This document shows positions 15,992 to 38,525 of a stretch of 64,000 bases of DNA, piece after piece; within the stretch, counting starts at the first letter, position 1, and every line of letters starts with the position of its first letter. Where the stretch lies: contig OZ242281.1 of NCBI GenBank assembly GCA_965207365.1, positions 2,173,331 through 2,237,330 of the forward strand, given 5' to 3'. This stretch comes from Dehalococcoidia bacterium (GTDB taxonomy: Bacteria > Chloroflexota > Dehalococcoidia > Bin125). The position numbers were made by a program, and so were the translations under genes. The notes under the pieces are model-generated. The model made no database searches. It was given only the letters and a program-made list of their open reading frames with translations, and was not told where the DNA came from.

Positions 15992-16075
15992 TCGGCGCTC
16001 CACCTCTGCAAGCCTGTCACTCTGCGAGCCTGGCTAACGTGCGGCAAGTCTAGGCGGTCGCGTAGGCTGTCGCTC

Positions 16076-20402: not shown

Positions 20403-22358
20403 ATGACAGAACGAAACTACTGGCAGCGCATGCGACGTAAGCAGATGAGCAGGCGTGCGCTCCTGAGGGCGTCGGGACGCGCAGGAGTCGGCGCTGCCGG
20501 ATTGGCGTTGGTCGGCTGCGGCGACGACGACGATGACGATCAGCAGTCGGCGGCGCAGGCCTCTGCCCAGCAGCAGGCCGTGCAACAACAAGAGGCGACG
20601 GCAGAGTCCCAGGCTCAGCAAGCCGACCAACAGGAAGGGTCCGCTGACGGCGCCGAGGAAGATGCCGAGGATCAGGTGCAGGTGGCGGCGACCGACATTG
20701 TTCGCGGCGGCAATCTGACCTTCTCGACGCCTGCGGCGACGCACGACTACTTTGACCCTGGTCGCGGCGTATTCGGCCCGACGCAGTTCTGGATGGGGTT
20801 CTACATGAACTACCTCATCCGCTACCGCAACAAAGAGCAGGATGTGGTGGAGCCGGACATCGCTTCGCTGCCTGAGATTCCAGACGACGAGACCTACATT
20901 TTCAGCATCGATCAAGGGGCTCGGTTCTGGGATCAGTACCCCACCGAGGGCGGCCGGCTGGTGACGGCAGAAGATATTCGAGTCAACTACCAGCGCCAGA
21001 TCGACGGCGTCGACGCGACCGGCGCGGACGACGGAACCTATCTCGGCGCAGGCGCATTTCGCCGAACCTCGGCGATGGAGGTGCCCGACGAGACCACCTG
21101 GGTGGCCCGGACTGACGGCCCCGACGCGACCTGGATGGGTGTCCCGCTGCGCCCCTTCAGCTGGATCACCAGCCCTGAAGCAATCAGCGAGTTCGGCGAC
21201 CGCTGGCGCGACGAGGCCGGCAATGTCAAGCTCTCCTCGGGCACTGGAATGTTCATTCCACACAGCTATGACCCGGATATCGGCATCAGCATGTCGGCCA
21301 ACCCCAACTACTGGAAGATGGGTGAAGACGGCCAACCGTTGCCCTACTACGACGAGTTGACTCTGGCCAACATGGAGGACCCAACCACGATTGAAGCCGC
21401 CTACCGAGGCAGGGAGATCACCAACGGGCGCTTCCCGCTCTCGACGTTGCAGGCACAGGGCATCATCGAGGACTTTCCCGACCACAACAGTGGCGAGATT
21501 GCGTTCGGCTTCACGATTATCACCCTGGCCAACTACAACAACGACTGGCCCGGTGAGGATGGCCTGGGCAATCCCTGGGTCGACCGACGCTTCGCCCAGG
21601 CTCTGCATGTCGCCGTGGACCCGTACCTGATGATCGACACGGTCTACCTCGGTTCCGGAAAGCCGACCGGCCTGCACGACACTCCCTGGTACAGCTCCTA
21701 TTGGGCGATTCCGGAAGAAGAGTTGTTGCAAACACCCGGCTATCGGCCGGATCGCGAGACCGACATCGCCGAGGCGCGGGCGTTGCTGGACGCGTCGGGC
21801 TATGACAGGAGCCGCGGCCTGCGGATGATCGCGCCTGACATCTGGGAGGGCACCTATCCTGGCATCCTCGAAACCGAGATTGGGATGTACCGAGAGGCGC
21901 TTGACCTCGAAGTCGAGTTCGACGTACAGCCGTACACGGTGATCCTGCAGCGTTTCGTCGACGGCACCTATCCAGGCAGCGGGCCGCAATGGGGCAACCC
22001 ACCGGCCGAACTGGATCCGACCGCGCCGTACAACGACTTCTTCACCCCCGAAGGTTCGGTCAACACGCTCTACTACGACTACGAGCCGATGGCCGACATT
22101 GCGCGGACAATGCGCCGGACGCTGGACAAAGAGGAGCGGCTAGAGATGTCGCACACGGCCCAGCGGATCCTGTTAGGCACGCATCCCGATCACGGCCTGG
22201 ACGGGATCACCACGCTTCCCGGGGTGATGAACGGCATCTCGCCAGTGCTCTGGTGGCCCTTCGTGCATCACAGCGAGGACACCCTGCAGTTCGCACACGC
22301 CAGCCATCGCTACGACGAGACCTGGATCGACGTCAACCATCCGGACTATCCGGCCTGA
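20403..22358 (+). CDS. ABC substrate-binding protein, family 5 (peptide/opine/nickel type), Tat-lipoprotein, paralog 1
   Basis: Twin-arginine SRRALLR followed by lipobox LVGC, then an Asp/Gln-rich tether. Also NPNYWK and PYYDE. AAGGAG RBS. Confidence 0.88.
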   Translation: MTERNYWQRMRRKQMSRRALLRASGRAGVGAAGLALVGCGDDDDDDQQSAAQASAQQQAVQQQEATAESQAQQADQQEGSADGAEEDAEDQVQVAATDIVRGGNLTFSTPAATHDYFDPGRGVFGPTQFWMGFYMNYLIRYRNKEQDVVEPDIASLPEIPDDETYIFSIDQGARFWDQYPTEGGRLVTAEDIRVNYQRQIDGVDATGADDGTYLGAGAFRRTSAMEVPDETTWVARTDGPDATWMGVPLRPFSWITSPEAISEFGDRWRDEAGNVKLSSGTGMFIPHSYDPDIGISMSANPNYWKMGEDGQPLPYYDELTLANMEDPTTIEAAYRGREITNGRFPLSTLQAQGIIEDFPDHNSGEIAFGFTIITLANYNNDWPGEDGLGNPWVDRRFAQALHVAVDPYLMIDTVYLGSGKPTGLHDTPWYSSYWAIPEEELLQTPGYRPDRETDIAEARALLDASGYDRSRGLRMIAPDIWEGTYPGILETEIGMYREALDLEVEFDVQPYTVILQRFVDGTYPGSGPQWGNPPAELDPTAPYNDFFTPEGSVNTLYYDYEPMADIARTMRRTLDKEERLEMSHTAQRILLGTHPDHGLDGITTLPGVMNGISPVLWWPFVHHSEDTLQFAHASHRYDETWIDVNHPDYPA

Positions 22359-22410
22359 GTCGTCTCGGCCCCGTTCGGACTAACAGGCGGACCAACTGGT
22401 GGACCAACAA

Positions 22411-22440
22411 AGGGCGACTTCGGTCGCCCTCTGTTGTGTA
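22411..22440 (+). terminator. intrinsic terminator-like hairpin after SBP1
   Basis: agggcgac-ttcg-gtcgccct (8-bp stem) followed by ctgttgtgt. Confidence 0.55.
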
Positions 22441-22441
22441 G

Positions 22442-22472
22442 TTGGCGCAAAGTGCGTATTGACAGCTACACT
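22442..22472 (+). promoter_or_regulatory. candidate promoter of SBP2 (TTGGCG-N19-TACACT)
   Basis: The same TTGGCG / GCTACACT pair with identical 19-nt spacing occurs upstream of SBP3. A related pair with 26-nt spacing occurs upstream of SBP4. Confidence 0.3.
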
Positions 22473-22515
22473 CGATCAACCTCTCTCAAGAGGATGAGCG
22501 ACCAGGAGGAATCAG

Positions 22516-24552
22516 ATGACCGAGCGATTTGACGGCAGGAACTACTGGCAACGGATGAAGCGGAACCGCGTGAGCAGGCGTGCGCTCTTGCGTGCGTCGG
22601 GACGCGCCGGCGTAGGCGCGGCCGGTCTGGCGCTGGTCGGCTGTGGAGATGACGATGACGACAGCGTCGCACAGGTCGCCCAGCAGCAACAACAGCAGCA
22701 ACAAGCGATGCAGCAGCAGGGCGGGCAGCAACAGCAGCAGCAGGCCATGCAGCAAGAGCAACAGGAACAGGCTGCAGACCAGGCAGCGCAGCAGGCCGAT
22801 CAGCAGGAGCAGCAGGCGGTCGCCGACGCCCAGCAACAGCAACAGCAACAGGCGGCTGCGGCGGTTCCGGAGACGGGCATCCCCGTCCATGGCGGCGTCA
22901 TGCGGCGTGCCTCGACGATCGAGACGCATGACTACTGGGACCCGCACCGAGGCGTGTTCGGACCGACCCAGTTCATGCACTCGATGCTCTACAACAACTT
23001 GATCCGTTGGAAGAACAAGGAGAAGTCGGAGATGGAGGCGGACATCGCCTCCTTGCCGGAGAATCCCGACGCAGAGACCTACATTTTCAACATCAACCCG
23101 GCTGCGCGCTGGCACGACGCTTATCCGACCGAGGGCGGACGCAACATTACCGCTGAGGACATCGTGGTCAACGTCGACCGCAACACTGCCGGCGTTGACT
23201 CGACCGGTGCCGAAGATGGCTCGTTCCTCGGCCTCTCAAGTTGGCGCAAGGTCGCCAGCGTCGAAGCGGTGGATGAGCGCACTCTGCGCACGACATCGGA
23301 CGGCGTCGACTCGACCTATCTCTCAGCGACCTTCCTGCGGCCCTTCGGTTGGATGGCGGCGCCGGAAGGCATCCGCGAGTGGGGCACCGAATCGGATGTC
23401 TGGCGCGACGACCCGACCACCTTGCGTGTGGCCGGCTCTGGTCCGTTCATCGCGGAGAGCTACGAGCCGACCGAGGTGTTCGTCGCCAATCGCAACCCGG
23501 ACTACTGGAAGGAAGACGCCTGGGGTCAGCAGCTGCCCTACGTCGACCGCATGGAGTACTACAACCTGTTCGACGAGACGGCGATCGAGACCGCAGTGCG
23601 CTCCAAGGAGCTCGACGGCGCCTGGCTAAACATCAGTCGCGTCGAATCGCTGCTCAACGACTTCCCGCAGATGCAGCGCAACACCGTCGGCGGCGGATTC
23701 ACGATCATGATCCGCACCAACTACAACCCCGACTGGCCCGGTGAGGACGGCGAGGGCAATCCCTGGCTCGACCGTCGCGTGGCCGCCGCCTTCCACCTGG
23801 CGACAGACCGCTATCTGATGATCGACACGGTCTACCTGGGCTCGGCCAAGCCGTCGGTCCTGGAAGAGATTCCCTGGTTCTCAACATTCTGGTCACCGAG
23901 CCAGGAAGAGATGACGGAGATCCCAGGATTCCGCGCGGACCACGAGGCCGATATCCGCGAAGCAAACGAGTTGATGGACGCCAGCGGGTTCCGCGACTCC
24001 GGCCGCTCGATCTACCTCTTCGCCCCCGACGTCTGGGAGCAGCGCTACCCGGGCATCGTCGAAACCGCGAAGAACATGTACGAGTCGGCGCTCGGTGTCG
24101 GCATCGAGATCAGCATCGACCCGTACACGATCCTGCTCCAGCGCCTGGTCGACGGCACGTCCACCGGCCAGATTCCCTGCTGGACGAACCCGCCCTCCGA
24201 CCTCGACCCGACCAGCTACTGGCTCAATGGTCGCGTGCCGGGTGGATCGGCGAACTTCTACAGCTACGAGAACCCGCGTGTCACCGAGATCGCCGAGGAG
24301 ATGAAGGTCACGCTCGACTTCGAGGCGAAGGGTGAGCTCTCGCGCGAGATGGTGCAACTGCAGCTTGGCATCCACCCCGACTACGGTTGGGAATCGCTCT
24401 CGCCGGGTCTGGGCGTGATGAACCCGGTCTCGAACGAGGCGGCCTGGCCCTGGTACCACGTGATCCCGGATGGCTACCAGTTCGCCCACCAGGGCCACAA
24501 GATCGTCGAGGAGCTGTGGCTCGACACCGCCCACGAGGACTACCAGGCATAG
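22516..24552 (+). CDS. ABC substrate-binding protein, family 5, Tat-lipoprotein, paralog 2
   Basis: SRRALLRASGRAGVGAAGLALVGCGDDDDD followed by a poly-Gln tether, plus NPDYWK. GGAGGA RBS. Confidence 0.88.
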   Translation: MTERFDGRNYWQRMKRNRVSRRALLRASGRAGVGAAGLALVGCGDDDDDSVAQVAQQQQQQQQAMQQQGGQQQQQQAMQQEQQEQAADQAAQQADQQEQQAVADAQQQQQQQAAAAVPETGIPVHGGVMRRASTIETHDYWDPHRGVFGPTQFMHSMLYNNLIRWKNKEKSEMEADIASLPENPDAETYIFNINPAARWHDAYPTEGGRNITAEDIVVNVDRNTAGVDSTGAEDGSFLGLSSWRKVASVEAVDERTLRTTSDGVDSTYLSATFLRPFGWMAAPEGIREWGTESDVWRDDPTTLRVAGSGPFIAESYEPTEVFVANRNPDYWKEDAWGQQLPYVDRMEYYNLFDETAIETAVRSKELDGAWLNISRVESLLNDFPQMQRNTVGGGFTIMIRTNYNPDWPGEDGEGNPWLDRRVAAAFHLATDRYLMIDTVYLGSAKPSVLEEIPWFSTFWSPSQEEMTEIPGFRADHEADIREANELMDASGFRDSGRSIYLFAPDVWEQRYPGIVETAKNMYESALGVGIEISIDPYTILLQRLVDGTSTGQIPCWTNPPSDLDPTSYWLNGRVPGGSANFYSYENPRVTEIAEEMKVTLDFEAKGELSREMVQLQLGIHPDYGWESLSPGLGVMNPVSNEAAWPWYHVIPDGYQFAHQGHKIVEELWLDTAHEDYQA

Positions 24553-24666
24553 CCAATCTCTACGACCAATGGCTCGGCTGCTCACCACGCTCGCTGTTTC
24601 GGCAGCGTGCGAGGCGGGTGAGCAGTCGGGCGCTCGGCGCCGCATTCGACCGCTCGTGTGAAGCAG

Positions 24667-24697
24667 TTGGCGTGTCAGGCGTCGTTTCGCTTACACT
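24667..24697 (+). promoter_or_regulatory. candidate promoter of SBP3 (TTGGCG-N19-TACACT)
   Basis: See 22442-22472; the motifs and spacing are conserved. Confidence 0.3.
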
Positions 24698-24739
24698 CTG
24701 CCAATCTGCACCTCCAATGTCGGAGCAAGGAGCTTCTGT

Positions 24740-26752
24740 ATGACCGAACGGAACTACTGGCAACGAATCCGTCGAAACCGTCTGAGTCGTCGTGATTTGT
24801 TGCGTGCGTCGGGACGCGCCGGCGTAGGCGCAGCAGGGTTGGCCCTGGTCGGTTGCGGTGGCGATGACGACGACAGCATCGCGCAGGTTGAGCAACAACA
24901 GCAGCAGCAACAACAGGCGATGCAGCAGGGCCAGCAGCAACAGCAGCAGGCGATGCAGTCGCAGCAACAACAGCAGCAGTCGCAGCAGGGCCAATCTGCT
25001 GACCAGACCGCACAGCAGGCTGACCAGCAGGAGCAAACAGCCGACGATGCCGACGATCAGCAAGCGCAACAGGCTGCGGTCAGCCAGGTCGTGCGCGGAG
25101 GGGACCTGCGATTCTCCACGCCGGCGGCAACCCACGACTACTTCGATCCGCACCGCGCCGTGTTCGGGCCGACTCAGTTCTGGATGGGGTTCTACATGAA
25201 CTACCTCATCCGCTGGCGCAACAAGGAACAGGGCATCATGGAGGCGGACGTCGCCTCGCTCCCGGAGGTTCCCGACGCGGAGACCTACATCTTCCGCATC
25301 GATCAGGGCGCGCGCTTCTGGGACCTGTACCCGACCGAAGGAGGTCGACTCGTTGACGCCGAAGACATTCGCGTAAATTTCCAACGTCAGATCGAAGCCG
25401 TGGATGCGAACGGAGCCGAGGACGGCACGTTCCTCGGCGCTTCATCATTCCGCAAGACGGCATCCATGGACGTGCCCGACGAGACGACGTTCGTGGCTAA
25501 GACTGCTGGCCCCGATGCAACCTGGATGGGCGTGCCATTGCGCCCCTTCAGTTGGGTCACGAGCCCTGAGGCGATCAATGAGTTTGGCGACCGCTGGCGT
25601 GACGAAGCGGGCAATGTCGAACTCTCCTCGGGCACCGGCATGTTCATTCCGCAGCGCTTCGATCCCGACATTGGGATCGACATGGTCCGCAACGAGAACT
25701 ACTGGAAGATGGGCGTCGACGGGCAGCCGCTGCCGTACTACGACACGGTCACGCTGTCCAACATCACCGACGCAACCGCGGTTGAAGCCGCTTATCGCAG
25801 CAAGGAGATCTTCAACGGCCGCTTCCCGCTGTCGTCGCTCCAGGCGGAGGGCATTCTGAACGATTTCCCCGATCACGGGCAAGGCACGGTGGCCTTCGGA
25901 TTCACGATCATCACCGGCGGCGCGAACTTCAATGCCGACTATCCAGGTGAAGACGGCCTGGGCAATCCCTGGATCGACCGCCGCTTCACGCAAGCGATGC
26001 ATGTCGCCGTTGACCGATATCTGATGATCGACACGGTCTATCTCGGTTCCGGAAAGCCCTCAGGCATGGGTGAGACGCCGTGGTACAACGCCTATTGGGC
26101 CATCCCGGAAGACGAACTGCTACAAACGCCCGGCTTCCGTCCCGACCGGGCGGTTGACATCGCCGAAGCTCGGGCGCTGTTTGACGCATCGGGCTACGAC
26201 CGCAGTCGTGGTCTGACGCTGATCGCACCCGATATCTGGGAAGGCACCTACCCGGGCATACTCGAGACCGAAGTCGGAATGTATCGCGAAGCGCTCGATC
26301 TCGAAGTCAGCTTCGACGTGCAGCCCTACACCGTCATTCTCCAGCGCTGGATCGAGGGCACCTACCCGGGACAGGGCCCGCAGTGGACCAACCCGCCGTC
26401 GGACCTCGATCCAACCACCTCGTACAACAACAACTACATTCCCGGCGGCAGCACGAACAACCTGGCGTACGAACATCCACGAATGACCGAAATCGCCGAA
26501 ACGATGACGGTCACTCTGGATCAGGAACAGCGTCAAGAGTTGGCGCAGGAAGCCCAGCGCATCCTGCTCGGCACGCATCCCGATTACGGACTCGATGGCG
26601 TTGCCAACAGCCCAGGCGTGATGAACGGTATCTCGCCAGTGCTGTGGTGGCCGTTCGTCAATCACGGCGACGACACGCTCCAGTTCGCCCACTCCAGCCA
26701 TCGGTACGACGAGTCCTGGATCGATGTCAACCACCCGGATTACCCGGCGTAA
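24740..26752 (+). CDS. ABC substrate-binding protein, family 5, Tat-lipoprotein, paralog 3
   Basis: Closest to paralog 1 (RFSTPAATHDYFDPHRAVFGPTQFWMGFYMNYLIRWRNKEQ). Same leader and lipobox, with a poly-Gln tether. Confidence 0.88.
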   Translation: MTERNYWQRIRRNRLSRRDLLRASGRAGVGAAGLALVGCGGDDDDSIAQVEQQQQQQQQAMQQGQQQQQQAMQSQQQQQQSQQGQSADQTAQQADQQEQTADDADDQQAQQAAVSQVVRGGDLRFSTPAATHDYFDPHRAVFGPTQFWMGFYMNYLIRWRNKEQGIMEADVASLPEVPDAETYIFRIDQGARFWDLYPTEGGRLVDAEDIRVNFQRQIEAVDANGAEDGTFLGASSFRKTASMDVPDETTFVAKTAGPDATWMGVPLRPFSWVTSPEAINEFGDRWRDEAGNVELSSGTGMFIPQRFDPDIGIDMVRNENYWKMGVDGQPLPYYDTVTLSNITDATAVEAAYRSKEIFNGRFPLSSLQAEGILNDFPDHGQGTVAFGFTIITGGANFNADYPGEDGLGNPWIDRRFTQAMHVAVDRYLMIDTVYLGSGKPSGMGETPWYNAYWAIPEDELLQTPGFRPDRAVDIAEARALFDASGYDRSRGLTLIAPDIWEGTYPGILETEVGMYREALDLEVSFDVQPYTVILQRWIEGTYPGQGPQWTNPPSDLDPTTSYNNNYIPGGSTNNLAYEHPRMTEIAETMTVTLDQEQRQELAQEAQRILLGTHPDYGLDGVANSPGVMNGISPVLWWPFVNHGDDTLQFAHSSHRYDESWIDVNHPDYPA

Positions 26753-26808: not shown

Positions 26809-28434
26809 ATGCAGCGATACCTCATCCAACGCCTGATCCTTGTGATCCCGACCCTGTGGTTGGTGATCTCGCTCCTTTTCCTGGCGCTGCGCGCGCTGCC
26901 TGGCGACTTTGTCACACGGAAACTCTCGAACCTGGAGAATCAGGGCGCGGAACAGCGTGAATCGGAGATCGTTGGATACATCGAAGTCACCGACACGACG
27001 CATCGCGTGATCTCGGGCGACACGCTGGAGAAGATCGCGACCAACAACAACACGTCGGTGTCGGCGCTGCTTGCGCAGAATCCTGACTTGGACACCTCGG
27101 GCGAGCTGCGACCGGGTACGAGAGTCACGGTGATTCCCGGTCAGTTACTCGAGGCGATTTCAATTGGACAGAGCATTGCTTTGCCTGAAGAAGTCGAACA
27201 AGGAGTGCAACTCCTGATCGACCGCAACCCCGATGTCAACTTCCCGCTGTATCAGGGCAAGCCGTATGCCGAGGCGGGGTCGGTTCTGGTCATCCGCGAC
27301 AGCTTGACGCTCGATGAGTTAGCGCACGTCAATCGCATTGATGCGAGCGACATCCTGGCGGTGAATCCAACCGGTAGCGCCAGTAATCCCGACGGCAATC
27401 TATCGGCCGATACGCAATTGCTGCCAACGGCGCTAGTGGTCACCGATGAAGGTGACACCCTGGAGCAGATTGCCGTTGCCTACGGTCGCGATCTAGAAGA
27501 AATGACTACAGCGAACCGGGGCATTGATCCGGCTGAGCCACTAGAAGCCGGAGTCGCGATCCACGTCCCATCCGACCGGATCGTCACGCCAACCACCAAG
27601 ATTACCGAGGCCAACATCAGGCACCGCCTGGGCATCGATAAGGGGCTCGGCACCCAGTACATCGACTTCCTTTGGGAGACGGTGCGGTTGAAATTCCGTC
27701 CGTCGTTCCAGACCCAGGAGGGGTCGCTGGATATCTTCCTCCGAGCATTACCACGTACGTTGCATCTCAACGTGTACGCATTGATCGTGGCGCTGACCAT
27801 CGCGTTGCCGGTCGGCATCCTCTCGGCTATGCGTCAGGACCGCCCGCTGGACTATGCGCTGCGAGGGTTTGCCATCCTCGCACTGGCGGCGCCCTCCTTC
27901 TGGATCGCGACCATGATGATCTTCGTGGTCACGCCGGGCGGCATCTCGGATAGCGGGATCTGGTCGATCCCGCTGACCTCTGAGGAGGCGCGATCGGTGT
28001 TCACATCGTTCACCGGAGCGCTGGCGTTGTACACGATTCCTGCCGTCGCGGGCGGACTTGCCGCCGGCGCCGGTCTGATGCGGATTACGCGGTCCGAGTT
28101 GCTCGAAGTGCTGCGTCAGGACTACGTCCGCACCGCCTGGTCGAAGGGTCTGCGCGAGCGGACCGTGATCCGCCGACACGCGATGCGCAACGCCTTGGTC
28201 AATGTGATGAGCGTGCTCGGCTTGCAGGTGGCGGCCCTGGTTGGCGGCAACATCATCCTCGAGCTGCTATTCAACATTCCCGGCATCGGTTTGCTGCTGA
28301 TTCAGCGGATCAACCAGGCCGATCTGCCCGTCGTACAAACGATGGTCTTCTTCTTTGCGCTGTTCATCATCGTGGTGAACATCATCATCGACATTTCATA
28401 CGCGGTCATCGATCCGCGTATCCGCTTCGCCTAA
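26809..28434 (+). CDS. DppB/OppB-type ABC permease with LysM-like insert (B1)
   Basis: Canonical N-terminus and C-terminal half (EVLRQDYVRTAWSKGL EAA loop; DPRIRFA end). A ~260-aa insert after TM1 holds LysM-like segments. Confidence 0.85.
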   Translation: MQRYLIQRLILVIPTLWLVISLLFLALRALPGDFVTRKLSNLENQGAEQRESEIVGYIEVTDTTHRVISGDTLEKIATNNNTSVSALLAQNPDLDTSGELRPGTRVTVIPGQLLEAISIGQSIALPEEVEQGVQLLIDRNPDVNFPLYQGKPYAEAGSVLVIRDSLTLDELAHVNRIDASDILAVNPTGSASNPDGNLSADTQLLPTALVVTDEGDTLEQIAVAYGRDLEEMTTANRGIDPAEPLEAGVAIHVPSDRIVTPTTKITEANIRHRLGIDKGLGTQYIDFLWETVRLKFRPSFQTQEGSLDIFLRALPRTLHLNVYALIVALTIALPVGILSAMRQDRPLDYALRGFAILALAAPSFWIATMMIFVVTPGGISDSGIWSIPLTSEEARSVFTSFTGALALYTIPAVAGGLAAGAGLMRITRSELLEVLRQDYVRTAWSKGLRERTVIRRHAMRNALVNVMSVLGLQVAALVGGNIILELLFNIPGIGLLLIQRINQADLPVVQTMVFFFALFIIVVNIIIDISYAVIDPRIRFA

Positions 28435-28470: not shown

Positions 28471-29709
28471 ATGAGTGATGACCGACAGTCTCAAACGCAA
28501 CTCGAGGAGTTCGCGCAGGCGCAGGGCCTGCGCGTTGAGGAACGCAGCTTTCTGCAGCTGCTTGGCCGCGCGTTGGTGTCATTTTTCCGGACTAAGCCAT
28601 TGGGCGCCGCTGGGCTGACGCTGGTTGTGGTCTGGTCGGTCATCGCCGTGGGGACGGTCGGTTCCGGCGGCGGTTGGTTGGGCTTGGGTCGTTACGACTC
28701 GCAGGATGTCTTCAAAGTCGCCAACGCCAACTTCGCCGACGACAAGATTGCCAACGAACTCGACGGCAAATCGGCTGATATCTCCGACAGCGAGCTTCGC
28801 GAGCTTCTGTTACAACCCGCCGTCTATGGCGATCTGGCTGAGCAGTCCGGTGTCCTTGACGACATGCTGGAGTACGTCGAAGGTCTGATCGCAAGCGGAA
28901 CGCTGCTGACTCACCTGGCGGAGTTCGACCCAGCCCAGATTGAGATCGTTGACGGCACGATCAACGATGTCGATGACTTGCTCGCGACCGGCACGAACAC
29001 GCCGCTGACAACGGCCTCGCTGCAAGGGCCCTCGGGCAAGCACTGGTTCGGCACCGACCGCGCGGGACACGACCTCTTCTCCCGGGTGACTGAAGGCGCG
29101 CGGTTGTCGCTCTACATTGGCTTCTTCGCCACGCTGATCGGTGTGGTCGCTGGAACAGCCATCGGACTCATTTCTGGCGCCCTGGGCGGCAACATCGACC
29201 TGGCGATCAACCGTCTGATGGACGCGCTGCTCTCCTTCCCGCCAATCGTGCTGTTGCTGTTGTTGCGCTCGGTGACGGAGCCATCTGCGCTGTGGGTGAC
29301 GTTGGCGCTCTCGGTGCTGGCTGTGGGGCCCGTCCAGCGGATTGTCCGCGGCGCGGTGATCGCACTGCGCGAGATGCCCTTTGTCGAGGCCGCCCGGACG
29401 GTCGGCGCGACGAACGCCCGAATCATGCTGATGCACATTCTGCCTAACATCGTTGCCCCGTTGATCGTGATCTTCTCGATCACCATCGGCGCGTTCATCC
29501 TCGCCGAGGCCGCGCTCAGCTTCCTCGGACTGGGCACGCTCGATGTCTCCTGGGGCAAGATGATCGCCGACGGTCGCCAGTTCATTGTGCAGTCGCCATG
29601 GACCTCGTTGTTCGCCGGCCTGGCGCTGACCAGCCTGGTGTTTGGCTTCAATGTCCTCGGCGATGCGCTGCGAGATGTCTTCGACCCGAGACTGCGTGGC
29701 AGCCGCTAG
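28471..29709 (+). CDS. DppC/OppC-type ABC permease with extended outside loop (C1)
   Basis: HWFGTDRAGHDLFSRV, EAA loop REMPFVEAARTVGATNARIM and GDALRDVFDPRLR. An insert of ~130-150 aa follows TM1. Confidence 0.85.
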   Translation: MSDDRQSQTQLEEFAQAQGLRVEERSFLQLLGRALVSFFRTKPLGAAGLTLVVVWSVIAVGTVGSGGGWLGLGRYDSQDVFKVANANFADDKIANELDGKSADISDSELRELLLQPAVYGDLAEQSGVLDDMLEYVEGLIASGTLLTHLAEFDPAQIEIVDGTINDVDDLLATGTNTPLTTASLQGPSGKHWFGTDRAGHDLFSRVTEGARLSLYIGFFATLIGVVAGTAIGLISGALGGNIDLAINRLMDALLSFPPIVLLLLLRSVTEPSALWVTLALSVLAVGPVQRIVRGAVIALREMPFVEAARTVGATNARIMLMHILPNIVAPLIVIFSITIGAFILAEAALSFLGLGTLDVSWGKMIADGRQFIVQSPWTSLFAGLALTSLVFGFNVLGDALRDVFDPRLRGSR

Positions 29710-30054: not shown

Positions 30055-32064
30055 ATGACCGAACGTAACTATTGGCAGCGCATGAAGCGCAATCGGCTTA
30101 GTCGCAGAGATCTGTTGCGAGCCTCAGGTCGGGCTGGCGTTGGAGCCGCCGGCCTGGCTCTGGTCGGTTGTGGTGACGATGACGACGATGCTCAGCCAGC
30201 GGCTGCTTCCCGTCAGCAGGACCAGCAGCAGGACCAGCAAGAGGTCATGCAGCAACAGCAGCAGGACCAGCAGCAACAGGCGATGCAGCAGCAGGATCAG
30301 CAGCAGCAAGCCGAGCAGACCGCTGCCGCTGCCGATCAACAGGACCAGCAGCAACAGCAGGCGATGCAGCAACAGCAGCAGCAATCCGGCGACCTCCGCT
30401 CGTACGGCGGCACGCTGCGCTTCTCAACTCCTGCCGCCACGCACGACTTCTTCGACCCGCACCGCGGCGTCTTCGGCCCCACCCAGTACTGGATGGGGTT
30501 CTACATGAACTACATGATCCGCTGGGCCTCGAAAGAGGGCGGGATCATGGAAGCGGACATCACATCTCTGCCCGAGACGCCCGATGCCGAGACGTACATC
30601 TTCAACGTCGACCGCGGCGCCCGCTACTGGGACCAATACCCGACCGAGGGCGGTCGTGATGTCACCGCCAGCGATATTGTGATCAACTTCGACCGCCAGA
30701 TCGCCGCGCTCGACGCCGAAGGCAACCCCGACGCGCGATTCCGCGGCCAGGACGCCTTCAAGAAAACCGCCTCGCACGAAGCGGTTGACGAGACGACCTT
30801 CGTCGCTAAGACTGCAGGTCCCGACGCGACCTATCTCGGTGGCACCATCCTGCGACCCTTCTCCTGGATCACCTCGCCGGAGGGCATCCAGGAGTTCGGT
30901 ACTCGCTGGCGCGACGAGACCGCAAACGTCGAACTCTCCTCCGGCACGGGCCCGTTCATCCCGCAGACCTTCGACCCGGATATCGGCATCTACCTGGAAC
31001 GCAACTCCAACTACTGGAAGGACGGTCCCGACGGCCAGCAGCTTCCCTACCCGGACGCCGTTGAGTTCGTCAACCTGACCGATGCGACCGCAGTCGACGC
31101 GGCATACCGCGGCAAGGGCATCGACATCGGCGGGTTCCCGCTGTCTTCGGTGCAGGTCGAAGAGCTGACCGGCGACTTCCCCGACCACCCGGTCGAGGAA
31201 GGCGCATTCGGCTTCACGATCGTCACCGTCATGGGCACATATGAGCCCGGCTGGGAAGGCTCGGACGGGCAGGGGAACCCATACCTCGACCGTCGTTTCG
31301 CCTACGCGATGCAGGTTGCGGTCGACCGCGACCTGTTGATCGACGCCGTCTACCTGGGCGCGGCCAAGCCGTCGGCGACCCACTTCTGTCCATGGTTCAG
31401 CCAGTACTGGACCGTTCCGCCCGAGGAGCTGCGCACGGTTCCGGGCTTCCGCCTCGACCGCGATGCCGACATCGCACTCTGCCGCGAACTGATCGAAGCC
31501 TCCGGCTTCGACAAGGACCGCACGGTGACGATCTACATCCCCGACCTCTGGGAGCAGACCTACCCGGGTATCACCGAGACCACGCGCAACATGTACGCCG
31601 AGGCGACCGGCATCAACGTCGAGCTGGACATCCAGCCCTACACCGTGATGCAGGACCGCTACGACAACAAGACGTTCCCCGGCCGGGCGCCGACCTGGAC
31701 CAACCCGCCGGCCGACCTCGACCCGACGGCGCAGTTCACCCTGTCGCTGAAGGTTGGTGGCGCGTCGAACCTGACGCAGTACAGCTACCAGCCGGTTGAG
31801 GACATCGTTGACACGATGTCAGTCACGCTTGACACCGAGCAGCGCCGCGACATGGCGCTGGAGGTGCAGCGGATCGGCCTTGGCGTTGACGAGGAACACG
31901 GCCTTGAAGGCATCTTCGGCTGGTTTGGCGTCATGAATGGCATCGCGCCAACCATCTGGTGGCCGTATGTCAACCGACCCGACGACACCTGGCAGTTCGC
32001 GCACGACTCGCACAACTGGGACACCGTTTGGATGGACAGCAGCCACCCGGACTTCCCGGCCTAG
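30055..32064 (+). CDS. ABC substrate-binding protein, family 5, Tat-lipoprotein, paralog 4
   Basis: Starts at internal ATG 30055 preceded by AAGGAG. Leader MTERNYWQRMKRNRLSRRDLLRASGRAGVGAAGLALVGCGDDDDD, with a Gln/Asp tether. Confidence 0.88.
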   Translation: MTERNYWQRMKRNRLSRRDLLRASGRAGVGAAGLALVGCGDDDDDAQPAAASRQQDQQQDQQEVMQQQQQDQQQQAMQQQDQQQQAEQTAAAADQQDQQQQQAMQQQQQQSGDLRSYGGTLRFSTPAATHDFFDPHRGVFGPTQYWMGFYMNYMIRWASKEGGIMEADITSLPETPDAETYIFNVDRGARYWDQYPTEGGRDVTASDIVINFDRQIAALDAEGNPDARFRGQDAFKKTASHEAVDETTFVAKTAGPDATYLGGTILRPFSWITSPEGIQEFGTRWRDETANVELSSGTGPFIPQTFDPDIGIYLERNSNYWKDGPDGQQLPYPDAVEFVNLTDATAVDAAYRGKGIDIGGFPLSSVQVEELTGDFPDHPVEEGAFGFTIVTVMGTYEPGWEGSDGQGNPYLDRRFAYAMQVAVDRDLLIDAVYLGAAKPSATHFCPWFSQYWTVPPEELRTVPGFRLDRDADIALCRELIEASGFDKDRTVTIYIPDLWEQTYPGITETTRNMYAEATGINVELDIQPYTVMQDRYDNKTFPGRAPTWTNPPADLDPTAQFTLSLKVGGASNLTQYSYQPVEDIVDTMSVTLDTEQRRDMALEVQRIGLGVDEEHGLEGIFGWFGVMNGIAPTIWWPYVNRPDDTWQFAHDSHNWDTVWMDSSHPDFPA

Positions 32065-32151: not shown

Positions 32152-33633
32152 ATGCAGAAGTACCTGATCCGGCGCATCATATTGGTGATCCCGACGCTGT
32201 GGCTCGTGATCTCCATTCTGTTTCTGGTGCTCAACGCACTTCCTGGTGACTACGTCACGATCAAGCTCGCCAATCTCGAAGCGTCGGGCGCGACCAAGAT
32301 CGAGGCTGAGATTGTCGGCGAGGTTGAAGTTGAACGGACGCTACACCGCGTCGTCGGCGGCGACACGCTGGACACTCTTGCGTTGAAGTACGGTGTCGGT
32401 GTTGCGGATATCGTCGCCAACAACCGTAGCCTGGATGCCAACTCCGAGTTGAGACCCGGTTCGACGATTGTCATTATCGATGGCCAACTCTTGTCCTCGA
32501 TCTCAAGGACGGCGCGGTTGGCGCTGCCGGAAAACACAGAGGACGGCGTTGCGCTGCTCGCGGAACGCAATCCCGATGTTGAGTTCGGTACGTTCTCTGG
32601 TGAGCTGTTCGCGCCCGCGGGCGTCACGCTGACGTTGCGCGAAAGCACCACACTGCGCGAGCTAGCGGTGGTCAACCGGGTCAGCCCCGACGACTACATG
32701 AACGTCAACGAAGAGGGCACGCCGGCGAACGAAGATGGCTCGCTGACCGTTGACACACCGTTGTTGCCTGGTCAGAAGTTCATCTCGCCGACTCGGGAAA
32801 TCACCGAGGCCAGCATCAAGAACCAGCTCGGCATCGACAAGCCGCTCGGCACGCAATACCTCGAATATCTGTGGGACACGATCCGCTTCCAGTTCCGGCC
32901 CTCGTTCCAGACCAACGAACCGTCGATGGACATCTTCCTGCGTTCCCTGCCGCGTTCGCTGCATCTCACCGTGTACGCGCTGATCGTGGCCGTCGTGGTG
33001 GCGTTGCCGGTTGGCATTCTTTCGGCGATGCGCCAAGACCAATGGGTCGACTACGCCCTGCGCGGGTTCGCGATTCTGGCCCTGGCCGCACCGGCGTTCT
33101 GGATCGCAACGATGATGATCTTTGTCGTCTCGCCTGGAGGCATTTTTGAGGGCGGCTTATGGTCGATTCCATTGACCGAGGAGAGCGCGAGGAGCATTTT
33201 CACCTCTGTTGATGGGTTCTTTGCGCTCTACACGATCCCCGCTGTCGCGGGCGGCATCGCCGCCGGGGCCGGGCTGATGCGGATCACCCGCTCCGAATTA
33301 CTTGAAGTGTTGCGGCAGGACTACGTACGTACCGCCTGGTCCAAAGGACTGCGCGAGCGCTCGGTCATCCGCCGGCACGCCCTGCGTAACGCACTGGTGC
33401 CGGTCTTGAGCGTGTTCGGCCTACAGCTCGCAGCGCTGGTTGGCGGCAACATCATCCTCGAAATTCTCTTCAATATTCCCGGAATCGGCCTGATGCTGAT
33501 TCAACGGCTCTACCAGGCCGACATCCCGGTTATCCAGACTGCGGTGTTCTTCCTGGCGCTCTTCGTGATCATCGTCAACATCGTGATCGACATTAGCTAT
33601 GCGCTGATCGATCCACGCATCCGCTACGACTAG
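32152..33633 (+). CDS. DppB/OppB-type ABC permease with LysM-like insert (B2)
   Basis: MQKYLIRRIILVIPTLWLVISILFL; LysM-like HRVVGGDTLDTLALKYGVGVADIVANNRSLDANSELRPGSTIVII; intact EAA loop YVRTAWSKGL. Confidence 0.85.
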   Translation: MQKYLIRRIILVIPTLWLVISILFLVLNALPGDYVTIKLANLEASGATKIEAEIVGEVEVERTLHRVVGGDTLDTLALKYGVGVADIVANNRSLDANSELRPGSTIVIIDGQLLSSISRTARLALPENTEDGVALLAERNPDVEFGTFSGELFAPAGVTLTLRESTTLRELAVVNRVSPDDYMNVNEEGTPANEDGSLTVDTPLLPGQKFISPTREITEASIKNQLGIDKPLGTQYLEYLWDTIRFQFRPSFQTNEPSMDIFLRSLPRSLHLTVYALIVAVVVALPVGILSAMRQDQWVDYALRGFAILALAAPAFWIATMMIFVVSPGGIFEGGLWSIPLTEESARSIFTSVDGFFALYTIPAVAGGIAAGAGLMRITRSELLEVLRQDYVRTAWSKGLRERSVIRRHALRNALVPVLSVFGLQLAALVGGNIILEILFNIPGIGLMLIQRLYQADIPVIQTAVFFLALFVIIVNIVIDISYALIDPRIRYD

Positions 33634-33640
33634 GGCCGAT

Positions 33641-34891
33641 ATGAGTCAGCAACCAGGCGCTAGCCAGCAACCTGATCAGGGTCAGCAGCTTGACGAATTC
33701 GCTGCAGCGGAAGGGTTGCAGGTTGACCAGGCGACCGGCCTGCGGCGCTGGCTGGTTGGTTTCCGACAGTTCATGTCGTCCAAGCGTCTCGGGGCCGCCG
33801 GTGTTGTGATCGTGGTGCTCTGGAGTGTCATCGCGGTCGGCACAGTCGGTGATGATGGTGGTTGGCTGGGTATCGGGCGATACGACTCTCGAGACGTGTT
33901 CGAAATCGCATCGGTGAGCTATGCCGATGACAAACTCGCTAACGCTCTTGATGGAGTGAGCGCAGATGTTTCAGCTTCTGAACTGCGAGCCATTGTCAGC
34001 GATCCCGACATCTTCGAAGAGGCGGCGTGGAATGTCGGCGTCGAGCTTGAGATGGTCGAGTACGCGCTTGGACGGGTTGAAGCGGGTGATCTGATTGACT
34101 GGTTGGTCCGGGAGCAACAGATCGAGATTGACGACGGTGTGATCGCCGACCATGATCGATTGCTCGCTGCCGGAACCGACAATCCCTTGATCACGGCGTC
34201 GTTGCTGGGACCGTCCGGCAAGCACTGGTTCGGCACGGACCGGGCTGGTCACGATCTTTTCTCTCGCGTGACCGAAGGCGCTCGCCTCTCGCTCTACATC
34301 GGATTCTTCGCCACGCTGATTGGTGTGGCCGCCGGAACGGTGACGGGATTGGTTTCCGGATCCCTTGGCGGGTCTGTCGACCTGATCATCAACCGAATCC
34401 TCGACGCGGTGCAGAGCTTCCCGCCCATCGCATTCCTCCTGCTGATCGCCTCGATCACCGACCCCTCAGCGCTCTGGGTGACCTTGTCGCTGTCAGTGCT
34501 GGGTATCGCGCCAACCAATCGAATTGTGCGCGGTAGCGTGATCCAGATTCGTGAGATGCCCTACGTCGAGGCGGCTCGCACCATTGGCGCCACCTCTTCC
34601 CGAATCATGAGCTTTCACATTCTGCCAAACATCTTCGCGCCGCTGATCGTAATCTTCTCGATCACCATCGGTGCGTTCATCCTGGCCGAGGCGGCGCTGA
34701 GTTTCCTCGGTCTGGGCACGTTGGATGTCTCGTGGGGCAAGATGATCGCCGACGGACGCCAGTTCATCGTCTATTCGCCCTGGACATCGCTCTGGGCCGG
34801 CCTGGCGCTGACGTCGCTGGTGTTTGGATTCAACGTCCTCGGCGACGCCCTCCGCGATGTCCTCGACCCACGCCTGCGGGGCAGTCGCTAG
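33641..34891 (+). CDS. DppC/OppC-type ABC permease with extended outside loop (C2)
   Basis: Paralog of C1. HWFGTDRAGHDLFSRV and EAA loop REMPYVEAARTIGATSSRIM. Confidence 0.85.
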   Translation: MSQQPGASQQPDQGQQLDEFAAAEGLQVDQATGLRRWLVGFRQFMSSKRLGAAGVVIVVLWSVIAVGTVGDDGGWLGIGRYDSRDVFEIASVSYADDKLANALDGVSADVSASELRAIVSDPDIFEEAAWNVGVELEMVEYALGRVEAGDLIDWLVREQQIEIDDGVIADHDRLLAAGTDNPLITASLLGPSGKHWFGTDRAGHDLFSRVTEGARLSLYIGFFATLIGVAAGTVTGLVSGSLGGSVDLIINRILDAVQSFPPIAFLLLIASITDPSALWVTLSLSVLGIAPTNRIVRGSVIQIREMPYVEAARTIGATSSRIMSFHILPNIFAPLIVIFSITIGAFILAEAALSFLGLGTLDVSWGKMIADGRQFIVYSPWTSLWAGLALTSLVFGFNVLGDALRDVLDPRLRGSR

Positions 34892-38456: not shown

Positions 38457-38525
38457 TCAGGTCAAGCGACCGCGATTCCTCTACCTTCTACCTCGACGTA
38501 GAGCACGACTCATGTGGAGGTTCGC

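What the first reader, a model, noticed from the sequence alone, without database searches (positions are those of the whole stretch)
26809..28434. LysM-like modules built into the first outside loop of all three DppB/OppB-type permease paralogs
B1 (26809-28434), B2 (32152-33633) and B3 (34901-36310) start like canonical DppB/OppB, with TM1 LILVIPTLWLVISLLFL followed by PGDFV. The conserved LG(I/V)D(K/R)..G.QY..(F/Y)LW block normally follows within a few dozen residues, but here it is pushed ~170-260 aa downstream.

The insert contains 2-3 segments with the LysM signature (..V..GDTL..IA......L...N.....L..G..h.hP):
- B1: HRVISGDTLEKIATNNNTSVSALLAQNPDLDTSGELRPGTRVTVIPG and VVTDEGDTLEQIAVAYGRDLEEMTTANRGIDPAEPLEAGVAIHVP
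- B2: HRVVGGDTLDTLALKYGVGVADIVANNRSLDANSELRPGSTIVIIDG
- B3: VPAVNGQTIADIAAERGLSLADLLTLNRERDPQESLPHGARVTVLAG

LysM is a GlcNAc-glycan (peptidoglycan/chitin) binding fold usually found on secreted or wall proteins. I do not know of it being described as an integral loop of an ABC importer membrane domain. It could tether the translocator to the wall or capture muropeptide or chito-oligomer substrates.
Basis: partly seen in the sequence, partly recalled or inferred. Interest (0 to 1): 0.78.

Follow-up and report, generated by a model that had tools for sequence, protein, structure and literature searches.

The report
LysM array inside an ABC permease
Three peptide-type ABC importer membrane subunits of an uncultured Dehalococcoidia bacterium carry a chain of sugar-binding LysM modules in the outside loop that normally reaches into the substrate-binding protein, an arrangement I found described in no paper.

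Summary
B1, B2 and B3 are DppB/OppB-type permeases with 180-230 extra residues between TM1/PGD and the LGIDK block. Pfam LysM is significant in B1 (two modules, 5.6e-17) and B2 (one, 2.8e-8). In B3 it is below threshold (0.019), but B3 is homologous by alignment.

An AlphaFold model gives four consecutive beta-alpha-alpha-beta modules in B1, and B2 and B3 lack the last one. Foldseek matches multi-LysM proteins. Two modules per protein are degenerate LysM copies.

The insert lies inside the "scoop motif", the element that in E. coli DppB enters the cleft of the docked binding protein. It evolves under purifying selection, and the first module keeps the canonical G-D-T...A...N signature in about 120 relatives.

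The family is small: eight clusters at 50% identity among 1.84 billion representatives. Every genome hit that carries the insert is a Dehalococcoidia/Chloroflexota MAG. The class is reported to lack peptidoglycan, so tethering to the cell's own wall is unlikely.

My best reading is a carbohydrate-binding ectodomain at the binding-protein/translocator interface, which either captures a glycan substrate or docks the binding protein.

Other findings:
- The C subunits carry a helical insert.
- B3/C3 lack the EAA coupling loop.
- No ATPase gene is in the locus.

It is a new variant of a known kind, and its function is untested.

The parts
20403..22358 (+). SBP1: family-5 solute-binding lipoprotein with a Tat-type signal (SRRALL), a lipobox (LVGC) and a Q/D/E-rich linker
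   Evidence: Pfam SBP_bac_5 9.4e-26. The signal, lipobox and linker are read from the translation.
22516..24552 (+). SBP2: paralogous family-5 binding lipoprotein with a long poly-Q linker
   Evidence: Pfam SBP_bac_5 1.1e-33; translation.
24740..26752 (+). SBP3: paralogous family-5 binding lipoprotein
   Evidence: Pfam SBP_bac_5 1.6e-28. A profile of the four SBPs is nearest to E. coli DppA, 1.8e-16.
26809..28434 (+). B1: DppB/OppB-type permease with a four-module LysM-type ectodomain
   Evidence: BPD_transp_1 8.3e-38 and LysM 5.6e-17. DppB 8z1v_A 5.9e-43. AF2 model and Foldseek.
26899..26952 (+). B1 residues 31-48: scoop helix alpha1 plus the near-invariant motif ..KLSNLENQGAE
   Evidence: Helix 32-43 in the model. 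L39, N41 and E43 are invariant, and G46 and A47 are at least 90% conserved, in all three paralog types. Corresponds to the DppB scoop motif.
26992..27138 (+). B1 module M1 (residues 62-110): canonical LysM
   Evidence: Pfam LysM stretch 65-108. Beta-alpha-alpha-beta at 63-109. The G70-D71-T72...A77...N91 signature is kept in 106-122 of 122 relatives.
27139..27279 (+). B1 module M2 (residues 111-157): degenerate LysM-like module
   Evidence: Beta-alpha-alpha-beta at 111-155, pLDDT about 85-89. hhalign to M1: probability 73.5%, E 2.9e-5, 28 columns. No Pfam hit.
27280..27441 (+). B1 module M3 (residues 158-211): degenerate LysM module with a 9-residue loop insertion
   Evidence: Beta-alpha-alpha-beta at 159-211. 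hhalign to M1: probability 95.5%, E 1.6e-8. No Pfam hit.
27442..27576 (+). B1 module M4 (residues 212-256): canonical LysM, absent from B2 and B3
   Evidence: Second Pfam LysM stretch. A 48-residue block is present only in the 541-aa orthologues. Beta-alpha-alpha-beta at 208-253.
27592..27684 (+). B1 residues 262-292: scoop helix alpha2 and the LGIDK..QY..FLW block, where alignment to DppB resumes
   Evidence: Helices 262-274 and 280-292. Aligned to DppB from residue 50.
28471..29709 (+). C1: DppC/OppC-type permease partner
   Evidence: BPD_transp_1 2.1e-24. OppC 8z21_B 1e-44.
28660..29040 (+). C1 residues 64-190: extra, mainly helical ectodomain in loop 1
   Evidence: Homology to solved OppC starts at C1 residue 188, which matches OppC residue 79. 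Helices at 77-151, pLDDT mostly 79-89 over residues 91-160 (one block 66), plus a hairpin at 157-166. No PDB fold match outside the membrane domain.
30055..32064 (+). SBP4: fourth family-5 binding lipoprotein. The likely start is the ATG at 30055; the listed ORF starts at 29974.
   Evidence: Pfam SBP_bac_5 3.4e-33. MTERNYWQRM..SRRDLL..LVGC begins at residue 28 of the listed ORF.
32152..33633 (+). B2: DppB/OppB-type permease with a three-module ectodomain (M1 canonical at nt 32335-32481; M2 and M3 degenerate at nt 32482-32784)
   Evidence: BPD_transp_1 7.7e-39 and LysM 2.8e-8. Aligns to B1 minus M4.
33641..34891 (+). C2: DppC/OppC-type partner with the same loop-1 insert
   Evidence: BPD_transp_1 9.8e-28. 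69% identical to C1.
34901..36310 (+). B3: diverged B paralog with three LysM-like modules (about nt 35102-35551), all below the Pfam threshold. The EAA coupling-loop region is deleted (about nt 35993-36160).
   Evidence: LysM 0.019; BPD_transp_1 26.4 bits, exactly at the cut-off. About 30 residues are missing where B1 and B2 have LLEVLRQDYVRTAWSKGL.... The same deletion is in orthologues P0129, P0131, P0132, L003 and L015.
36307..37416 (+). C3: diverged C paralog. It keeps the loop-1 insert and lacks the EAA region. Its ATG overlaps the B3 stop codon.
   Evidence: No Pfam hit. NCBIfam gives split OppC-type hits. About 27 residues are missing relative to C1 and C2. ATGA overlap. Orthologues in L003 and L015 show the same deletion.
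37413..38456 (+). MBL-fold hydrolase. Its ATG overlaps the C3 stop codon. It lies downstream in most of the related loci that extend that far.
   Evidence: Lactamase_B 2.7e-27. ATGA overlap. Synteny.
38514..39401 (+). SDR oxidoreductase (nearest model: glucose 1-dehydrogenase subfamily), conserved downstream
   Evidence: NCBIfam NF005559 3e-62. Synteny.
39420..40520 (+). Zn-dependent alcohol/polyol dehydrogenase, conserved downstream
   Evidence: NCBIfam: tdh and scyllo-inosose dehydrogenase-like hits, 1e-45 to 1e-48, all below the cut-offs. Synteny.

Best explanation
B1/C1 and B2/C2 are the membrane subunits of two Opp/Dpp-family (type I) ABC importers. They are served by four lipid-anchored, long-tethered family-5 binding proteins.

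In the B subunits the extracytoplasmic scoop motif has been expanded. In E. coli DppB this motif enters the cleft of the docked binding protein and seals the outward-facing cavity. Here helix alpha1, a conserved NLENQGAE loop and helix alpha2 are kept, and an array of tandem LysM (CBM50) modules is inserted between the loop and alpha2. B1 has four modules and B2 and B3 have three. One or two modules keep the canonical ligand signature and the other two are degenerate.

Most likely the array is a carbohydrate-binding ectodomain standing beside the docked binding protein at the mouth of the translocation path. There it would bind a GlcNAc-type glycan or glycopeptide, such as chito-oligosaccharide or wall fragments of other bacteria. 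It would either collect the ligand for the system or hold it when the binding protein releases it.

Shown: the architecture, the LysM homology and fold, the position within the scoop motif, purifying selection, and the narrow phylogenetic range.

Inferred: outside topology (by homology to solved DppB and from charge distribution), glycan binding, and coupling to transport.
For: - **LysM identity.** Pfam gives 5.6e-17 for B1 and 2.8e-8 for B2. The AF2 insert has pLDDT mostly 79-89 (two blocks 70-74) with four beta-alpha-alpha-beta units. Foldseek matches Ecp6 (4b8v, 4.3e-4, 235 columns), the CERK1 ectodomain, the Thermus NlpC/P60 LysM pair, and single LysM domains at TM 0.86-0.88 and rmsd 1.2-1.3 A. 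The degenerate modules relate to M1 by profile comparison, at 95.5% and 73.5% probability.
- **Permease identity and insert site.** DppB 8z1v_A matches at 5.9e-43, with B1 2-35 aligned to DppB 2-35 and B1 268-540 to DppB 50-337. DppB residues 32-62 are the scoop motif, which docks into DppA (PMC12136057).
- **Outside location.** The short N-terminus is basic, TM1 is at residues 9-27, and the loop is acidic, with 42 D/E against 23 K/R.
- **Functional constraint.** dN/dS of the insert is 0.08-0.24. M1 keeps G70, D71, T72, A77 and N91 in 106-122 of 122 relatives, while M2 and M3 have lost that signature. This argues that the ligand site of M1 is maintained.
- **Working importer parts.** B1 and B2 keep the EAA region. 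C partners and SBP_bac_5 genes are adjacent.
- **Non-peptide cargo is possible.** Residues R355 and D408 of DppA bind the ends of the dipeptide. At the aligned positions these binding proteins have E and P. The operon continues into an MBL-fold hydrolase and two sugar/polyol-type dehydrogenases.
- **Own wall unlikely as the ligand.** SAR202 and other Dehalococcoidia are reported to lack peptidoglycan synthesis.
Against: - No binding data exist. LysM folds can also serve protein-protein contacts.
- Two of the three or four modules have lost the LysM signature. B3 has lost most of it in M1 as well.
- The binding proteins are nearest to DppA, HbpA and OppA. That fits peptides as well as anything else, and the alignment behind the R355/D408 comparison is at about 20% identity.
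- The C subunit has a co-occurring helical insert, and the binding proteins have unusually long tethers. Together these could mean the whole ectodomain is a docking platform.
- I could not check whether this genome really lacks mur genes, or where its ATPases are.
- The membrane part of both models has low confidence, and no complex was modelled.
Confidence: 0.42

Rival explanations
1. Docking or sealing platform. The LysM-fold array of B, together with the helical insert of C, forms a raised extracytoplasmic crown. It recognises, positions or seals the tethered binding proteins by protein-protein contact, as the MalF P2 loop does for MalE. The LysM fold has been co-opted and binds no glycan.
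For: - The insert sits in the scoop motif, whose known job is contact with the binding protein.
- The C subunits carry a co-conserved insert of about 125 residues in their own first loop.
- All four binding proteins have long Q-rich tethers, and their number varies from one to five or more per transporter unit between strains.
- Two modules per protein have lost the LysM signature but remain folded and conserved.
- The ectodomain persists in B3/C3, whose M1 falls below the Pfam threshold.
Against: The canonical signature of M1 is almost invariant across about 120 relatives, and M4 also keeps GDTL...N. That is not expected for a pure scaffold. No complex model or interaction data are available.
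Confidence: 0.3
2. Envelope anchor. The LysM array fixes the translocator to a glycan layer of the cell's own envelope, either peptidoglycan (if this lineage has it) or a glycosylated S-layer.
For: LysM is typically a wall-anchoring module. The canonical signature is conserved. The binding proteins have long tethers that could span an envelope layer.
Against: - Dehalococcoidia, including SAR202, are reported to lack peptidoglycan synthesis and to be monoderm with an S-layer-like coat.
- The insert is placed in the mobile scoop motif rather than in a peripheral loop. Fixing that motif to a static layer would hinder the transport cycle.
Confidence: 0.1
3. Non-functional relic. The insert is an accidental domain insertion that is tolerated but has no role.
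For: B3 and M2/M3 are degenerate. The family is narrow.
Against: - dN/dS is 0.08-0.24 across species with dS above 1.
- The insert is kept in three paralog lineages and in 15 representative species with conserved synteny.
- The signature residues are kept.
Confidence: 0.03

Closest known systems
E. coli DppBCDF / OppBCDF and M. tuberculosis DppABCD / OppABCD (PepT family, type I ABC importers; PDB 8z1v, 8z21, 8wd9, 8j5q)
   Same: - B1 and B2 match DppB/OppB, and C1 and C2 match DppC/OppC, over the whole six-helix membrane domain, EAA coupling region included.
- They use family-5 binding proteins.
- Scoop helix alpha1 and alpha2 are recognisable.
   Different: - An array of 180-225 residues made of LysM modules is inserted in the scoop motif of B.
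- An insert of about 100-125 residues sits in loop 1 of C.
- No DppD/DppF genes are in the locus.
- There are several binding-protein paralogs on long tethers.
- The third pair, B3/C3, has no EAA loop.
MalF P2 loop of the E. coli maltose transporter MalFGK2
   Same: A large folded extracytoplasmic domain is inserted in a loop of one membrane subunit of a type I ABC importer. In MalF it contacts the binding protein (established knowledge; review PMC6906923 listed).
   Different: - The fold differs: Ig-like in MalF against tandem LysM here.
- The loop differs: TM3-TM4 in MalF against TM1-TM2 (the scoop motif) here.
- The importer family differs.

This is an analogy of design, not homology.
Multi-LysM glycan receptors and effectors (Ecp6, AtCERK1, CEBiP, Thermus NlpC/P60 N-terminal LysM pair)
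   Same: Tandem beta-alpha-alpha-beta modules. Foldseek aligns 190-240 columns of the B1 insert to them. M1 and M4 have the canonical signature.
   Different: - Those proteins are secreted or single-pass, whereas this array is a loop of a polytopic transporter subunit.
- The overall packing differs (rmsd 16-18 A over the multi-module alignments).
- Two modules here are degenerate.
Opp/Dpp-type transporters for non-peptide or wall-derived cargo (Vibrio chitobiose system with binding protein CBP; Thermotoga oligosaccharide systems; MppA-OppBCDF for murein tripeptide)
   Same: The same transporter family carries GlcNAc oligomers, other oligosaccharides or muropeptides (my own knowledge, not tested here). 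MppA appears among the PDB matches of the binding-protein profile, at 3e-6.
   Different: In those systems, as far as I know, specificity lies only in the binding protein, and none has a carbohydrate-binding module in the permease. No specific similarity of these binding proteins to the chitobiose or oligosaccharide binders was found.

Membership tests
LysM domain (Pfam PF01476 / CBM50) | Sequence match to the family HMM above the curated threshold (20.9 bits) | tested here: met
   B1 scores 61.9 bits with two stretches and B2 scores 34 bits with one stretch. B3 does NOT meet it (15.3 bits, E 0.019). Modules M2 and M3 of all three are not detected by Pfam.
LysM domain (Pfam PF01476 / CBM50) | Beta-alpha-alpha-beta fold of about 45 residues | tested here: met
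   The AF2 model of B1 has four such units at pLDDT mostly 79-89 (two blocks 70-74). Foldseek matches single LysM domains at TM 0.86-0.88 and rmsd 1.2-1.3 A, and multi-LysM proteins at E down to 4e-4. This is a prediction, not an experimental structure.
LysM domain (Pfam PF01476 / CBM50) | Conserved ligand-site signature (G-D-T-L/V ... I-A ... L-x-x-x-N ... G) | tested here: met
   In M1, G70 is kept in 116, D71 in 106 (plus 13 N), T72 in 112, A77 in 122 and N91 in 122 of 122 relatives. M4 has GDTLEQIA...ANRG. The signature is not met in M2, M3 or the B3-type M1.
LysM domain (Pfam PF01476 / CBM50) | Binds GlcNAc-containing glycans (peptidoglycan or chitin) | not testable with these tools
   Needs binding assays with the purified ectodomain.
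LysM domain (Pfam PF01476 / CBM50) | Extracytoplasmic location | tested here: inconclusive
   Inferred from alignment to the solved DppB topology and from the charge distribution. No dedicated topology predictor or experiment was available.
Opp/Dpp (PepT) family ABC importer permease, B subunit | BPD_transp_1 membrane domain homologous to DppB/OppB over six helices | tested here: met
   B1 8.3e-38 and B2 7.7e-39. DppB 5.9e-43 and OppB 1.1e-36. B3 reaches only 26.4 bits, exactly at the cut-off, and only the first half of its membrane domain matches in NCBIfam.
Opp/Dpp (PepT) family ABC importer permease, B subunit | EAA coupling loop that engages the ATPase | tested here: met
   B1 and B2 have LLEVLRQDYVRTAWSKGLRER, aligned to DppB MLEVLGEDYIRTARAKGLTRM. 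It is NOT met in B3 and C3, where about 27-30 residues are deleted and the remainder is diverged.
Opp/Dpp (PepT) family ABC importer permease, B subunit | Partner C subunit and a family-5 binding protein encoded alongside | tested here: met
   C1, C2 and C3 and four SBP_bac_5 genes lie in the same strand-continuous cluster. The synteny holds in 15 species.
Opp/Dpp (PepT) family ABC importer permease, B subunit | Cognate DppD/DppF-type ATPases | tested here: not met
   There is no Dpp-type Walker A or LSGG motif in the 64-kb window, nor within 10 kb of the gene in L001-L015. Most canonical DppB loci of related Dehalococcoidia also lack adjacent ATPases, so supply in trans is likely. The rest of the genome could not be searched.
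MalF-P2-type binding-protein docking domain | Homology to the MalF P2 Ig-like domain | tested here: not met
   Foldseek finds no match of the insert to MalF; only membrane-domain matches to MalF/MalG appear, at E above 0.05. The resemblance is functional analogy only.

The most novel reading that the evidence does not exclude
The scoop motif of an ABC importer has become a ligand receptor of its own. The LysM array would take a GlcNAc-type oligomer from the tethered binding protein, or catch it directly from the surroundings, and feed it into the translocation path of a peptidoglycan-less bacterium. The EAA-less B3/C3 pair would be a non-transporting derivative that uses the same ectodomains as a receptor or as a parking site for binding proteins.
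Probability: 0.2. Interest if true: 0.8.

Novelty: new variant of a known kind. Interest (0 to 1): 0.62.

Why it matters
In type I ABC importers, substrate recognition is assigned to the soluble binding protein. The membrane subunits contribute only a short scoop element.

A folded carbohydrate-binding array grafted into that element would be a second, membrane-fixed recognition or hand-over site. That would change how specificity and capture are thought to work in this transporter class.

It occurs in uncultured Dehalococcoidia. Some of the bin names suggest sponge symbionts, but I did not verify this. The substrates of these bacteria are largely unknown, so the locus, with its conserved downstream hydrolase and dehydrogenase genes, is a concrete lead to what they take up.

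The conserved B3/C3 pair without coupling loops is a natural case of an ABC membrane dimer that may have left transport for another role.

Tried and rejected
1. A word-indexed homology search with the insert alone returned only eight fragments or truncated gene calls and gave no new context.
2. Profiles of the degenerate modules M2 and M3 searched against PDB sequences gave no significant hit; LysM receptor kinases appeared only at E about 2. Their LysM nature rests on the predicted fold and on profile-profile comparison.
3. Two full-text searches for LysM in ABC permeases or importers found nothing relevant.
4. The binding proteins could not be assigned a ligand. A single sequence matches OppA only at 1e-4. 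NCBIfam hits are far below the cut-offs. The profile is nearest to DppA.
5. The C1 insert has no recognisable solved fold.
6. L076 looked like a different long insert but is three tandem canonical DppB paralogs.
7. I considered B3/C3 as recent pseudogenes and rejected that. The ORFs are intact, there are ATGA overlaps at B3/C3 and C3/MBL, and EAA-less orthologues at 43-59% identity occur in other species.
8. I considered the missing ATPases to be special to this locus and rejected that. It is a trait of most DppB loci retrieved from this class.
9. Chance similarity is excluded by the E-values and the fold match.
Full report
**1. Checking the observation**

The ORF list confirms three same-strand genes at the stated positions:
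- B1: 26809-28434, 541 aa.
- B2: 32152-33633, 493 aa.
- B3: 34901-36310, 469 aa.

Each is followed by a DppC/OppC-type partner:
- C1: 28471-29709.
- C2: 33641-34891.
- C3: 36307-37416.

Four family-5 binding-protein genes precede or interleave them: 20403-22358, 22516-24552, 24740-26752 and about 30055-32064.

Pfam results for the B subunits:

| Protein | BPD_transp_1 | LysM |
|---|---|---|
| B1 | 8.3e-38 | 5.6e-17, two stretches |
| B2 | 7.7e-39 | 2.8e-8, one stretch |
| B3 | 26.4 bits, exactly at the cut-off | 15.3 bits, below the 20.9-bit cut-off |

Against solved structures, B1 residues 2-35 align to E. coli DppB 2-35, and residues 268-540 align to DppB 50-337. About 230 residues therefore stand where DppB has about 14. 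The LysM call is significant for B1 and B2. For B3 it holds only through homology, because B3 aligns without gaps over this region and is 44% identical to B1 overall.

**2. Anatomy of the insert**

An AlphaFold2 model of B1 was built on 28 family sequences. It gives pLDDT mostly 79-89 (two blocks 70-74) over residues 51-290 and low confidence for the membrane part.

The insert is four consecutive beta-alpha-alpha-beta units:
- M1: residues 63-109.
- M2: residues 111-155.
- M3: residues 159-211.
- M4: residues 208-253.

Foldseek against the PDB finds DppB/OppB for the membrane part (1e-9 to 1e-5). For the insert it finds multi-LysM proteins: Ecp6 at 4.3e-4 over 235 columns, the CERK1 ectodomain, CEBiP, and the Thermus NlpC/P60 LysM pair. 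Single LysM domains match at TM 0.86-0.88 and rmsd 1.2-1.3 A.

M1 and M4 are the two Pfam stretches. M3 is a diverged LysM with a nine-residue loop insertion (hhalign to M1: 95.5% probability, E 1.6e-8). M2 is more remote (73.5%, E 2.9e-5 over 28 columns). B2 and B3 equal B1 minus M4, a clean 48-residue difference.

The insert is under purifying selection. dN/dS is 0.08-0.24 against orthologues with dS above 1, although its dN is about 2.5 to 5 times that of the membrane domain in those comparisons. In 122 family members M1 keeps the canonical LysM signature: G70 in 116, D71 in 106 (plus 13 N), T72 in 112, A77 in 122 and N91 in 122. M2 and M3 have lost it.

**3. Where the insert sits**

The published E. 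coli DppABCDF structures define residues 32-62 of DppB as a periplasmic "scoop motif" (alpha1-loop-alpha2). This is the segment between TM1 and helix alpha3. It is disordered in the free translocator. In the pre-catalytic complex it occupies the cleft between the two lobes of DppA, makes salt bridges through E41 and R42, and seals the outward-facing cavity. Deleting it impairs transport (PMC12136057).

B1 keeps three elements of this motif:
- A helix at residues 32-43, equivalent to alpha1.
- A stretch ..KLSNLENQGAE that is close to invariant in all three paralog types.
- A helix at residues 262-274, equivalent to alpha2, where homology to DppB resumes.

The LysM array lies between the loop and alpha2. 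It is therefore grafted onto the very element that touches the binding protein and its ligand site, not onto a neutral loop.

An outside location follows from this homology. It also fits the basic N-terminus, TM1 at residues 9-27, and the acidic loop (42 D/E against 23 K/R). No dedicated topology predictor was available.

**4. The rest of the system**

*C subunits.* They carry their own loop-1 insert. Homology to solved OppC begins at C1 residue 188, which matches OppC residue 79. The extra segment, about residues 64-190, is predicted to be mainly helical with pLDDT mostly 79-89 over residues 91-160 (one block 66). It matches no solved fold.

*Binding proteins.* They have Tat-type signals, a lipobox, and Q/D/E-rich linkers of roughly 70-100 residues. 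Their profile is nearest to E. coli DppA (1.8e-16), then HbpA and OppA, with MppA at 3e-6. Residues R355 and D408 of DppA hold the ends of the dipeptide. At the aligned positions these proteins have invariant E and P. The alignment is remote, so this is only suggestive.

*Operon.* C3 overlaps by ATGA with an MBL-fold hydrolase gene. An SDR (nearest model: glucose 1-dehydrogenase subfamily) and a Zn-dependent polyol/alcohol dehydrogenase follow. These downstream genes follow the transporter genes in most related loci that reach that far.

*ATPases.* No Dpp-type ATPase gene lies in the 64-kb window or near any of the 15 related loci. Most canonical DppB loci retrieved from Dehalococcoidia also lack one. 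This is a trait of the lineage, and the ATPases are probably supplied in trans.

**5. B3/C3**

Both proteins lack about 27-30 residues that cover the EAA coupling loop, and what remains there is diverged.

The same is true of B3-type proteins P0129, P0131 and P0132 (43-47% identical over the N-terminal 300 residues), and of the B3/C3 orthologues in L003 and L015.

The genes are intact, and B3 and C3 overlap by ATGA. The pair is present in some species and absent from the closest relatives of the window (L009 at 97% and L081 at 99% B1 identity).

This is a conserved but dispensable derivative. It keeps the ectodomains and most likely cannot engage an ATPase in the usual way.

**6. Distribution and prior knowledge**

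An exhaustive HMMER search of 1.84 billion cluster representatives with B1 residues 1-300 found only eight clusters below 1e-30. All belong to this family. The remaining hits are ordinary multi-LysM proteins without a permease domain.

In one-genome-per-species contigs, the 15 loci that carry the insert are all Dehalococcoidia/Chloroflexota MAGs. Some bin names suggest sponge metagenomes. That rests on my own reading of the names and was not verified.

The precomputed Pfam labels already show PF01476 together with PF00528 for these proteins. The source names, however, are only "ABC transporter permease subunit" or "hypothetical protein".

Two literature searches found no description of LysM within an ABC importer permease.

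Published genome analyses report that SAR202 and other Dehalococcoidia lack peptidoglycan synthesis and have a monoderm envelope with an S-layer-like coat. One sponge study found CBM50/LysM only in Anaerolineae and Caldilineae (PMC6306507 and PMC10444878). I could not test this genome for mur genes.

**7. Interpretation**

Firmly supported: B1/C1 and B2/C2 are Opp/Dpp-family importer membrane dimers, and the scoop motif of the B subunit carries a tandem LysM ectodomain.

*Most likely mechanism (about 0.4).* The array is a carbohydrate-binding appendage at the interface between binding protein and translocator. It would bind a GlcNAc-type glycan or glycopeptide of external origin and help to collect it, or to retain it when the binding protein opens. 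Three things support this:
- The ligand signature of M1 (and M4) is maintained, while neighbouring modules drifted.
- The binding proteins lack the DppA residues that anchor the peptide ends.
- The downstream genes are of sugar/polyol type.

*Main rival (about 0.3).* The B array and the C insert form a docking or sealing crown for the long-tethered binding proteins, an analogue of MalF P2, with no glycan involved.

*Other readings.* Anchoring to the cell's own envelope (about 0.1) is weakened by the reported lack of peptidoglycan in the class and by the position in a mobile motif. A relic without function is excluded by the selection data.

**8. Novelty and score**

This is a new variant of a known kind. 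It combines two known components, a type I ABC importer membrane subunit and the LysM fold, in an undescribed and mechanistically suggestive position, within a narrow uncultured lineage. I score interest at 0.62. The architecture would surprise a transporter specialist and is directly testable, but no function is shown.

Noticed in passing
window 34901-37416 (B3 about 35993-36160; C3 about 37100-37200): B3 and C3 both lack the EAA coupling-loop region (about 27-30 residues deleted) but keep their ectodomains. EAA-less orthologues exist in other species, and the pair is absent from the closest relatives of the window.
   Followed up: yes
window 28660-29040 (C1); the same region in C2 and C3: The DppC-type partners carry an extra, mostly helical ectodomain of about 100-125 residues in their first outside loop. 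It is conserved in all three paralogs and matches no solved fold.
   Followed up: partly
whole window; loci L001-L080: No Dpp/Opp-type ATPase genes lie next to these permease genes. Most canonical DppB loci of related Dehalococcoidia also lack them, which suggests shared ATPases encoded elsewhere.
   Followed up: partly
window 20403-26752 and 30055-32064: There are four paralogous family-5 binding lipoproteins with a Tat signal, a lipobox and Q/D/E-rich low-complexity linkers of about 70-100 residues. Their total number per locus varies from about three to six between related strains.
   Followed up: partly
window 36307-36310 and 37413-37416: ATGA start/stop overlaps join B3 to C3, and C3 to the MBL-fold hydrolase gene. 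The transporter genes and the downstream hydrolase, SDR and ADH genes look like one transcription unit.
   Followed up: partly
window 17905-18603: A single 232-aa ORF combines a nucleotidyltransferase domain (NTP_transf_2) with a HepT-like RNase domain. It looks like a fused MNT-HepT toxin-antitoxin pair.
   Followed up: no
window 14861-16003 (-), 48143-49303 (-), 49579-50784 (-): Three paralogs of the serine beta-lactamase/esterase family (PF00144) lie within 64 kb, in an organism whose class is reported to lack peptidoglycan.
   Followed up: no
window 43856-46492: An 878-aa ORF gives two matched stretches to CoA-transferase family III, so it looks like a duplicated or fused enzyme.
   Followed up: no
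L076 8664-11841: Three tandem canonical DppB-type paralogs are followed by one DppC-type gene in another Dehalococcoidia MAG. None carries an insert.
   Followed up: partly
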